DNA of 60,714 nt, counting the filler, from Perkinsus olseni (lineage: Eukaryota): the NCBI GenBank assembly GCA_013115125.1. It is 2 parts of 2 records of this genome, joined end to end, with 100 filler letters (N's around TTAATTAATTAA, not from the genome) between each part and the next. Parts side by side here need not be neighbours in the genome. Positions count along the whole stretch, not along the records: positions 1 to 30,333 come from JABANN010000421.1; 1 more part is not named here. One strand, 5' to 3'. The notes under the pieces were generated by a model. That model saw nothing but the letters and a program-made list of their open reading frames with translations. It did not search any database and had not been told where the DNA came from. The number at the start of each line of letters is the position of its first letter. Positions within the stretch are counted from its first letter, which is position 1. The translations under genes and the position numbers were made by a program. This document shows positions 25,777-26,220 of this stretch, in pieces.

Positions 25777-25848
25777 GACACTTTAGCTTAGTGGTAGAGC
25801 GTCTGCTTCGTAAGCAGAAGGTCGTCAATTTAATCCTGGCAAGTGGCT
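25777..25848 (+). pseudogene. Degenerate tRNA-Thr(CGU)
   Basis: GACACTT TA GCTT AGTGGTA GAGC G TCTGC TT CGT AA GCAGA AGGTC GTCAA TTTAATC CTGGC AAGTGGC T. Anticodon arm is intact, but there is an A-G mismatch in the acceptor stem, an A-C mismatch in the T-stem and a broken B box (TTTAA for TTCGA). Confidence 0.85.
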
Positions 25849-26220
25849 GGAGTGTTTGCCGAGATCACACTACTTTCTGATGACTGTAGGAGGAAGACGG
25901 TCGCGTCCCTGCGGAGACGCGTGGGTCGCGCCGCCAGGCCTCGCTTTTCGTTTTCAGCCACCCTCCCTGAACCCTGCAAAACCGAGAGTGTGGGTGAGCT
26001 CGTCACCATCCAAAGGATGGGGCGGGCTGGACGTGTCTAGTTGCCGTTACCAGGACAAGGTGCTTGGTCGAATACTCGGCTTTCATGGGCATGCAAGTCC
26101 GTGATCGCATGGGTTTCGGCGGTTCCGAGAGCTCTCCCACGGAACTGCGCTTGCCTCAGGTTCCGGCACTCGCACGCCCCACGGTGGGGGTGGGGCCCCC
26201 ACCCCCCTCCCCACACTCAG
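25849..26220 (+). ncRNA. Candidate structured RNA (unassigned) directly downstream of the tRNA-Thr pseudogene
   Basis: At least 8 helices readable by eye, with repeated G-U pairs on the + strand (see findings). No known snRNA, SRP or RNase P/MRP motif recognised. Confidence 0.55.

What the first reader, a model, noticed from the sequence alone, without database searches (positions are those of the whole stretch)
25843..26220. Unannotated ~370-nt strand-specific structured RNA fused behind a broken tRNA-Thr gene
Seen: right after the tRNA-like head, the sequence forms nested helices: GTGGCTGGAG(25843-52)/TTTCAGCCAC(25952-61); closing stem GAGTGTGGG(25986-94)/CCCACACTC(26210-18); CTCGTC/GGCGGG stacked on CCATCC/GGATGG (25999-26026); CTGGA/TCTAG; GGTCGA/TCGGCT (26066-81); TCATGGGC/GTCCGTGA (26083-104); GCGGTTCCG/CGGAACTGC (26119-48); GGGGGTGGG/CCCACCCCC (26186-206). 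About ten non-Watson-Crick pairs in these helices are G-U on the + strand and none is A-C. Caveat: helices were picked by eye on this strand, which favours G-U. Inference: a decaying DNA palindrome would give both types, so this suggests RNA-level selection, either an ncRNA co-transcribed with a tRNA-like leader or the body of an undescribed tRNA-derived SINE. No U snRNA, SRP, RNase P/MRP or SL motif was recognised.
Basis: partly seen in the sequence, partly recalled or inferred. Interest (0 to 1): 0.8.

Follow-up and report, generated by a model that had tools for sequence, protein, structure and literature searches.

The report
Decayed copy of a tRNA-headed repeat
This stretch is not a one-off RNA gene but a worn-out copy of a short repeat, found many times in a Perkinsus (oyster and clam parasite) genome, that starts with a threonine tRNA and is most likely a SINE-type jumping element.

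Summary
The + strand folds better than shuffles (z -3.6, against -1.5 for the - strand). The excess lies only in the 3' module 25986-26218. The G-U/A-C asymmetry is weak: 14 against 9 G-U pairs, not significant.

Named protein matches place the window in Perkinsus. Contigs of a DNA run with flanks identical to the window give a summed depth of about 165-183 on the flanks. The body (25871-26205) reaches 7,000-14,800, roughly 40-90 times the flanks. The tRNA head reaches 67,000-130,000. Depth falls back to 183 after about 26205.

All 44 other contigs covering the head carry G at 25828, and 42 carry C at 25831, which gives an intact B box. This copy has private mutations there and in the acceptor stem, so it is a dead copy. 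One Perkinsus olseni predicted protein is a translated second copy. Rfam finds only the tRNA.

Best reading: an old copy of a tRNA-Thr(CGU)-headed SINE-like family that my literature searches did not find described. SINE hallmarks are missing: no target-site duplication, no tail, no partner LINE. DNA-level amplification of a tRNA gene unit therefore stays a live rival. This is ordinary biology of modest interest.

The parts
25777..25848 (+). tRNA-Thr(CGU)-like head. A box at 25784-25794, anticodon at 25809-25811, T arm and B box region at 25824-25840. This copy differs from all or nearly all other copies at 25828 and 25831 and has an A2/G71 mismatch.
   Evidence: Rfam tRNA 51.5 bits. ARAGORN is silent. 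44 of 44 contigs read G at 25828 and 42 contigs read C at 25831 in run X1, with the same letters in X9, X10 and X11.
25849..25961 (+). Linker or first body segment. It is homologous to, but diverged from, the segment that follows the head in other copies. It shows no folding excess.
   Evidence: z -0.33 on the + strand. Loose ends behind 25849 and 25867 show a related but different continuation in other copies.
25945..25954 (+). Two TTTT runs, the only T4 runs in the element. They could act as Pol III stop signals about 100 nt behind the tRNA.
   Evidence: The family varies here: 25955 C>T, a 1-nt deletion at 25949 and an insertion behind 25952.
25986..26218 (+). GC-rich, strongly self-complementary 3' module closed by a perfect 9-bp stem (25986-94 with 26210-18).
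   Evidence: z -5.42 on + and -3.68 on -, 0 of 200 shuffles each. Helices verified. Summed depth 7,000-14,800 against 183 in the flank.
26186..26206 (+). Perfect 9-bp hairpin near the 3' end of the repeat. By inference it could be a handle for a reverse transcriptase.
   Evidence: 9 of 9 pairs. The repeat depth ends between the bins 26139-26205 and 26206-26272.

Best explanation
Window 25777 to about 26215 is one old, mutated copy of a short interspersed repeat of a Perkinsus genome.

The family unit, in order:
- a leader of at least 11 nt;
- a head that looks like a canonical tRNA-Thr(CGU) gene, with internal Pol III A and B boxes;
- a linker of about 110 nt ending in T runs;
- a GC-rich, hairpin-rich 3' module of about 230 nt.

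The most likely mechanism is a tRNA-derived SINE. This mechanism is inferred, not shown. Pol III starts from the head's internal promoter. The + strand RNA folds, and its 3' module would be the handle that the reverse transcriptase of a partner LINE copies back into DNA.

This copy is dead. It carries private changes in the B box/T arm (25828, 25831) and in the acceptor stem (25778), and it sits in an intergenic region made of other repeats.

Shown: multi-copy status, sharp ends, unique flanks, family-conserved promoter bases that this copy has lost, and a better fold on the + strand.
Inferred: transcription, retroposition and the role of the 3' module.
For: 1. Multi-copy with sharp ends. Run X1 has flank contigs identical to the window at 25094-25379, 25394-25808 and 26138-27000, each with 0 differences. 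Summed contig depth is 165-183 on the flanks, 67,565-129,723 on 25737-25870 and 6,994-14,756 on 25871-26205. It is 183 from 26206 on. The ratios are about 38-89 for the body and 368-786 for the head.

2. At least 8-10 distinct body variants cover 26109 and 26137 in X1. Coded organism B (X10) holds 26026-26172 with 9 differences.

3. Family state against this copy. 25828 A>G is in 44 of 44 contigs and 25831 T>C in 42 contigs, with the same letters in X9, X10 and X11. These restore the T stem and a TTCAATC loop. Loose ends before 25779 end in GC, which gives a fully paired acceptor stem.

4. Head and body are linked in other copies. Contigs run from the head into a homologous linker (X9 record 23). 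Overlapping contigs then tile 25892-26172.

5. A common 5' edge. Seven X1 contigs agree at 0.98 over the 13 letters before 25779. Agreement falls further upstream. Organism B shares about 17 of those letters. This is what a unit starting at a Pol III start site would show.

6. One variant carries the body from about 25890 behind unrelated sequence (X1, X9). That fits a 5'-truncated copy.

7. A P. olseni 'hypothetical protein, partial' translates a second copy of about 25958-26040, then diverges.

8. No Rfam family other than tRNA at E up to 10.

9. The + strand, which is the tRNA strand, folds better than the - strand.

10. Of the 14 listed family differences in the body, 8 lie in unpaired positions, where 31% would be expected (p 0.04).

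11. Context. P. marinus carries hundreds of copies of some tRNA genes (PMC3706591, sections read). RepeatMasker reported 15% 'tRNA-derived sequences' in sampled DNA of the dinoflagellate Alexandrium ostenfeldii (PMC3229502, passage).
Against: - No target-site duplication. The only shared flank word is the 6-mer CTCAGT, and about 2 such matches are expected by chance.
- No A-rich or simple-repeat tail at the 3' end.
- Two internal TTTT runs at 25945-25954 could stop Pol III before the 3' module. Yet depth does not drop behind them.
- The family head looks like a normal, processable tRNA gene. RNase P and RNase Z should cut it away from the body.
- In other copies a TTT lies a few bases behind the tRNA. 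The window's tRNA-Gln gene is also followed only by TTT.
- No partner LINE was found, and no other copy lies in the window.
- The P. olseni copy differs on its 3' side, which retroposition does not predict.
- Three of the 14 family differences break predicted pairs, and no compensatory change was seen.
- Summed contig depth is not a copy number. The head depth can include ordinary tRNA-Thr genes.
- No RNA evidence at all.
Confidence: 0.6

Rival explanations
1. A tRNA-Thr gene unit amplified at the DNA level. Perkinsus multiplies some tRNA genes to hundreds of copies. Here the gene would have been copied together with conserved 5' and 3' flanks by segmental or tandem duplication or gene conversion, and this locus would be a solitary, decayed pseudogene copy. 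The 3' module would be passenger DNA.
For: - P. marinus has 349 tRNA-Leu-CTT and 116 tRNA-Gly-GGA genes (PMC3706591, section read).
- The family head is a canonical-looking tRNA with a short T run just behind it.
- Sequence upstream of the tRNA is conserved among copies.
- Two X1 contigs at about single-copy depth show two heads 80-105 nt apart (joints 25858>25779 and 25867>25790).
- No target-site duplication or tail.
- Both strands of the 3' module fold better than shuffles, as a DNA palindrome would.
Against: - This copy lies alone between unique flanks with sharp ends.
- The conserved upstream part is only about 11-17 nt, and agreement falls beyond it.
- One variant starts within the body behind unrelated DNA.
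- The + strand folds about 10 kcal/mol better than the difference between the shuffle means explains.
Confidence: 0.22
2. Two separate things side by side: a tRNA-Thr (pseudo)gene, and another mobile element that lands just downstream of tRNA genes. That element could be a MITE with 9-bp terminal inverted repeats (25986-94 with 26210-18) or the 3' end of a tRNA-targeting retroelement.
For: - The 3' module is bounded by a perfect 9-bp inverted repeat and folds on both strands.
- The body occurs behind other sequence in one variant.
- Perkinsus has transposons with tRNA-gene target specificity: Dada (PMC3706591).
- Depth at 26038-26043 drops to 547 in X1.
Against: - Other copies continue from the tRNA straight into a homologous linker, and overlapping contigs tile head, linker and module. 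Depth is similar over linker and module.
- The dip at 26040 coincides with a local cluster of differences that clips short contigs. The loose end there is homologous.
- Dada inserts inside the A box and is 4.7-11 kb long. Neither is true here.
Confidence: 0.1
3. A functional, locus-specific structured ncRNA made by Pol III from a tRNA-like leader promoter. From memory, yeast RPR1 and SNR52 work this way.
For: - An A box is present in the leader.
- The body is about 370 nt with a + strand folding excess.
Against: - The stretch is multi-copy and diverged.
- This copy has lost the family's B box bases.
- No match to RNase P, MRP, SRP, snRNA or any other Rfam family at E up to 10.
- T4 runs lie before the structured module.
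Confidence: 0.03

Closest known systems
tRNA-derived SINEs (the SINE2/tRNA class), for example the AfuSINE2 families of Aspergillus fumigatus (PMC5063351; abstract seen in the listing), and 'stringent-type' SINE/LINE pairs whose 3' stem-loop is recognised by the LINE reverse transcriptase (PMC5135761; abstract seen)
   Same: It is short (about 440 bp) and non-coding. It has a tRNA-like head with A and B boxes, a body unrelated to tRNA and a hairpin near the 3' end. It is multi-copy, sits in unique flanks, and decayed copies exist.
   Different: There is no target-site duplication, tail or partner LINE. The family head is still a canonical-looking tRNA. There are internal T4 runs. I found no SINE reported from Perkinsozoa.
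Highly amplified tRNA gene families of Perkinsus marinus (Kojima and Jurka 2013, PMC3706591; sections 10 and 13 read)
   Same: It is from the same genus. tRNA-like sequences occur in hundreds of copies, far more than in other parasitic protists.
   Different: That paper counts Ile, Leu, Gly and Tyr genes, not Thr. It says nothing about a shared 3' body; 'SINE' and 'tRNA-Thr' do not occur in its text.
Dada DNA transposons that target tRNA genes in P. marinus (PMC3706591)
   Same: They are mobile DNA tied to tRNA genes in the same genus.
   Different: Dada splits the tRNA at TAGCTC in the A box and is 4,666-10,979 bp long with a transposase. Here the tRNA is whole, and the attached piece is 370 nt, non-coding and 3' of it.
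Pol III genes with a tRNA-like leader promoter (yeast RPR1, SNR52; recalled, not checked)
   Same: The layout is a tRNA-like A/B-box segment in front of a structured RNA of a few hundred nucleotides.
   Different: Those are single-copy genes with conserved, catalogued RNAs. This is a multi-copy, decaying sequence with no Rfam family.

Membership tests
tRNA-derived SINE | Head derived from a tRNA with internal Pol III A and B boxes | tested here: met
   Rfam tRNA at 51.5 bits, with an A box at 25784-25794. The B box is intact in the other copies and mutated in this one (25828, 25831).
tRNA-derived SINE | Short (under about 700 bp) and non-coding | tested here: met
   The repeat spans about 25777-26215, roughly 440 bp. 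The longest open frame, stop to stop, is 96 aa. It finds only one credible protein, a translated copy, among 4 hits in 1.84 billion representatives.
tRNA-derived SINE | Many dispersed copies in unrelated flanks | tested here: inconclusive
   The depth ratio is 38-89 for the body. The flanks here are unique, and one P. olseni copy has a different flank. Contig depth is not a copy number, and the genomic positions of the other copies could not be seen because no genome is held.
tRNA-derived SINE | Target-site duplications flanking each copy | tested here: not met
   Only the 6-mer CTCAGT (25750 and 26216) is shared, and about 2 such matches are expected by chance. An old copy may have lost its duplication.
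tRNA-derived SINE | 3' tail (A-rich or simple repeat) or a 3' end shared with a partner LINE | tested here: inconclusive
   No tail is visible at 26200-26230. A 9-bp hairpin lies at 26186-26206. No LINE is available to compare, and there is no second copy in the window.
tRNA-derived SINE | Transcribed by Pol III as one RNA | not testable with these tools
   No RNA holder is listed. T4 runs at 25945-25954 argue against a full-length Pol III transcript.
Catalogued structured ncRNA (RNase P/MRP, SRP, snRNA, rRNA fragment and others) | Match to an Rfam covariance model | tested here: not met
   Only tRNA passes. All other matches in 25300-26700 have E of 0.7 or more and lie far below their gathering scores.
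Dada transposon insertion in a tRNA gene | tRNA split in the A box at TAGCTC; element of 4.7-11 kb encoding a DDE transposase | tested here: not met
   The tRNA model is matched end to end, 1-71. The attached piece is 370 nt and non-coding. The criteria come from PMC3706591.

The most novel reading that the evidence does not exclude
The very high tRNA gene numbers of Perkinsus arise because canonical, still usable tRNA genes are the heads of composite retroposons. On this reading the tRNA-Thr(CGU) unit seen here is one such family. Its 230-nt + strand-structured 3' module is the RNA handle for a still unidentified reverse transcriptase. SINE spread would then double as tRNA gene amplification in this lineage.
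Probability: 0.2. Interest if true: 0.5.

Novelty: new member of a known kind. Interest (0 to 1): 0.25.

Why it matters
If confirmed, this would be a first described tRNA-headed SINE-like family in Perkinsozoa, a lineage whose repeats are barely catalogued. It would also offer a concrete explanation for the unusually high tRNA gene counts reported for P. marinus. In practice, the repeat breaks assemblies and is mis-annotated as protein; a P. olseni 'hypothetical protein' is a translated copy. For this locus the message is sobering: the apparent structured RNA gene is a dead repeat copy.

Tried and rejected
- **Fungal Mg-SINE idea.** I first read the window as fungal (Pfam) and looked up Mg-SINE. 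I dropped this when one search placed the window in Perkinsus.
- **Own genome.** None is held, so there is no direct copy count and no alignment of copies.
- **Other copies in the window.** None by blastn at word size 7.
- **Metagenome scans with two 22-mers of the body.** The first found nothing. The second found one contig, L001, a GC-rich bacterial-looking sequence with no similarity outside the 22-mer, so a chance match.
- **Sequencing runs.** No RNA holder is listed. X9 is only guessed to be RNA. Its body-to-flank depth ratio (47-87 against 2.4) is no higher than in the DNA run, so it says nothing on expression.
- **Protein searches with the 96-aa frame.** Near lengths gave 1 hit. Longer lengths gave none of 59 candidates. 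All representatives gave 4 hits, of which 3 (P0005-P0007) are repetitive proteins: P0005 and P0007 by comparison, and P0006 judged only from its 8 short stretches.
- **Earlier findings of this scan.** Nothing for this sequence or genome, and the word search returned unrelated cases.
- **Covariation.** This could not be tested, because only a list of differences between copies is available, not whole copies.
- **A second tRNA-like piece near 25060-25135.** Rfam gives no tRNA match there.

Full report
**What is there**

Window 25777-25848 matches the Rfam tRNA model end to end at 51.5 bits, against a gathering score of 29. The anticodon loop reads TTCGTAA, so the anticodon is CGT (Thr). ARAGORN does not call it. 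The alignment shows an A2/G71 mismatch in the acceptor stem, a mismatch in the T stem and a T loop TTTAATC in place of the usual TTCRANY type. The 370 nt behind it have 62% G+C in a window of about 50-55%.

- Six checked by script pair at 51 of 51 positions, with 7 G-U pairs.
- Three more read add 3 G-U pairs.
- Most of them appear in the MFE structure.

**Is it more than chance?**

- For 25843-26220 the + strand folds to -176.4 kcal/mol, z -3.59, with 0 of 100 shuffles as good.
- The - strand folds to -156.7 kcal/mol, z -1.53, with 10 of 100 shuffles as good.
- Against 640 windows of the same size from this 60-kb window, corrected for G+C and G+T, 16 of 640 are as extreme as the + strand and 61 of 640 as the - strand. 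The excess is real but not unique.
- Split up, the excess lies wholly in 25986-26218: z -5.42 on + and -3.68 on -, 0 of 200 shuffles each. The stretch 25849-25961 has none, at z -0.33.

The claim that about ten pairs are G-U and none A-C follows from picking helices on one strand:
- The - strand MFE uses 9 G-U pairs, which are A-C on the + strand, against 14 on the + strand. The p value is 0.40.
- A Watson-Crick-only fold leaves 3 G.T and 0 A.C single mismatches on the + strand.
- Folding the - strand the same way leaves 5 mismatches that are G.U on the + strand and none of the other kind. The p values are 0.125 and 0.03.

This is a hint of strand bias, no more.

**What organism**

No genome is held for the window. 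An Iml2-like ORF (14860-16728) is 85% identical to a protein named from Perkinsus marinus ATCC 50983 and 80% identical to one from P. chesapeaki. My first guess of a fungus, and of Mg-SINE, was therefore wrong.

**The decisive result: it is a repeat**

I laid the contigs of four public runs on 25000-27000. Run X1 (coded organism A) has contigs identical to the window's flanks at 25094-25379, 25394-25808 and 26138-27000. Its summed contig depth is:

| Stretch | Summed depth |
|---|---|
| Flanks | 165-183 |
| 25737-25870 (head) | 67,565-129,723 |
| 25871-26205 (body) | 6,994-14,756 |
| 26206 onward | 183 |

The ratios to the flanks are about 38-89 for the body and 368-786 for the head. Summed contig depth is not a copy number, and the head can attract ordinary tRNA-Thr genes. 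The step at both ends is nonetheless sharp.

Further points:
- Eight to ten distinct contigs cover single body positions.
- Coded organism B (X10) holds 26026-26172 with 9 differences.
- Coded organism C (X11) holds the head and a piece of about 30-40 nt around 25895-25937.
- Other copies run from the head into a linker that is homologous to ours but diverged, and overlapping contigs tile 25892-26172. Head and body therefore travel together.
- One variant has the body from about 25890 behind unrelated sequence.
- Two contigs at about single-copy depth show two heads 80-105 nt apart.

Independently, the 96-aa frame across the element finds a 'hypothetical protein, partial' of P. olseni. Its first 28 residues are a near-identical translation of about 25958-26040, after which it diverges. 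The other three hits of the exhaustive search are repetitive proteins. P0005 and P0007 were compared; P0006 was not compared.

**This copy is decayed**

At 25828 all 44 X1 contigs read G where the window has A. At 25831, 42 contigs read C where it has T. X9, X10 and X11 show the same. These changes restore the T stem and a TTCAATC loop, that is, the B box. The loose ends before 25779 end in GC, which gives a fully paired acceptor stem. So the 'broken tRNA' is private to this copy.

In the body, 26055, 26109 and 26137 are also private or nearly private changes. Pieces of other copies differ from ours by about 3.5% to more than 10% (table 8).

Of the 14 listed body differences:
- 8 fall in unpaired positions, where 31% would be expected (p 0.04);
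- 3 keep a pair as G-U;
- 3 break a pair;
- none is compensatory.

**What it is not**

- Rfam gives nothing but tRNA at E up to 10. That excludes any catalogued RNase P or MRP RNA, SRP RNA, snRNA or rRNA piece.
- It is not a Dada insertion. Those split the tRNA at TAGCTC in the A box and are 4.7-11 kb long (PMC3706591, sections read).

**Mechanism**

The best fit is a tRNA-derived SINE. The features that fit:
- a head with a Pol III promoter;
- a conserved leader of about 11-17 nt, beyond which copies disagree, as expected if the unit begins at the transcription start;
- a body unrelated to tRNA;
- a hairpin-rich 3' module that folds better on the tRNA strand;
- a 5'-truncated-looking variant;
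- insertion into unique DNA.

The retroposition hallmarks are missing:
- no target-site duplication beyond a 6-mer expected by chance;
- no tail;
- no partner LINE;
- two internal T4 runs;
- a family head that should be processed like a normal tRNA.

P. marinus is known to carry hundreds of copies of some tRNA genes. DNA-level amplification of a tRNA gene with its flanks therefore remains a serious rival.

My odds are about 0.6 for a SINE, 0.22 for a DNA-level unit, 0.1 for two adjacent elements and 0.03 for a locus-specific ncRNA. I am about 0.95 sure that it is a multi-copy repeat and not a unique RNA gene.

**Novelty**

Five literature searches found no description of a Perkinsus SINE. The Dada paper contains neither 'SINE' nor 'tRNA-Thr'. 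Repbase and paper supplements could not be checked, so 'undescribed' holds only for those searches. This is a new member of a known kind and of modest interest.

Noticed in passing
window 24960-25060, 25439-25700, 26220-26310: The element and a second repeat patch are separated by blocks of short repeats of 7 and 27 nt (GGTGACA, GACTGGT and AGTGTCT types). GGTGACWGGTGAC occurs 6 times against 0.15 expected, all within 25480-25697. Depth in X1 is about single-copy there. The origin of these blocks is unexplained.
   Followed up: partly
window 25058-25438: Another low-copy repeat: summed depth is 300-1,850 against 165 in the flank. One contig each in X1 and X9 skips 25136-25267, a stretch of 132 nt. 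A B-box-like GGTTCAATCC lies near 25112, but Rfam gives no tRNA match.
   Followed up: partly
window 38824-39798 and 40367-41419, - strand: Two tandem lactate/malate dehydrogenase genes, about 71% identical over 300 nt.
   Followed up: no
window 56169-57551 (+) and 58265-59551 (-): Two convergent ORFs with an endonuclease/exonuclease/phosphatase domain, lying in inverted repeats that are 77-78% complementary. No reverse transcriptase domain was seen in them, so they are not evidently a LINE.
   Followed up: no
window 19823-19917 and 38257-38351: A 95-nt dispersed direct repeat, 83% identical.
   Followed up: no
window 45432-45503: An intact tRNA-Gln(TTG) gene at 63.2 bits, followed only by TTT, with no T4 run in the next 60 nt. 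Pol III stop signals in this organism may be short.
   Followed up: no
protein P0004 (P. olseni record): A public 'hypothetical protein, partial' begins with a translated piece of this repeat. It is probably a mis-annotation at a contig end.
   Followed up: partly
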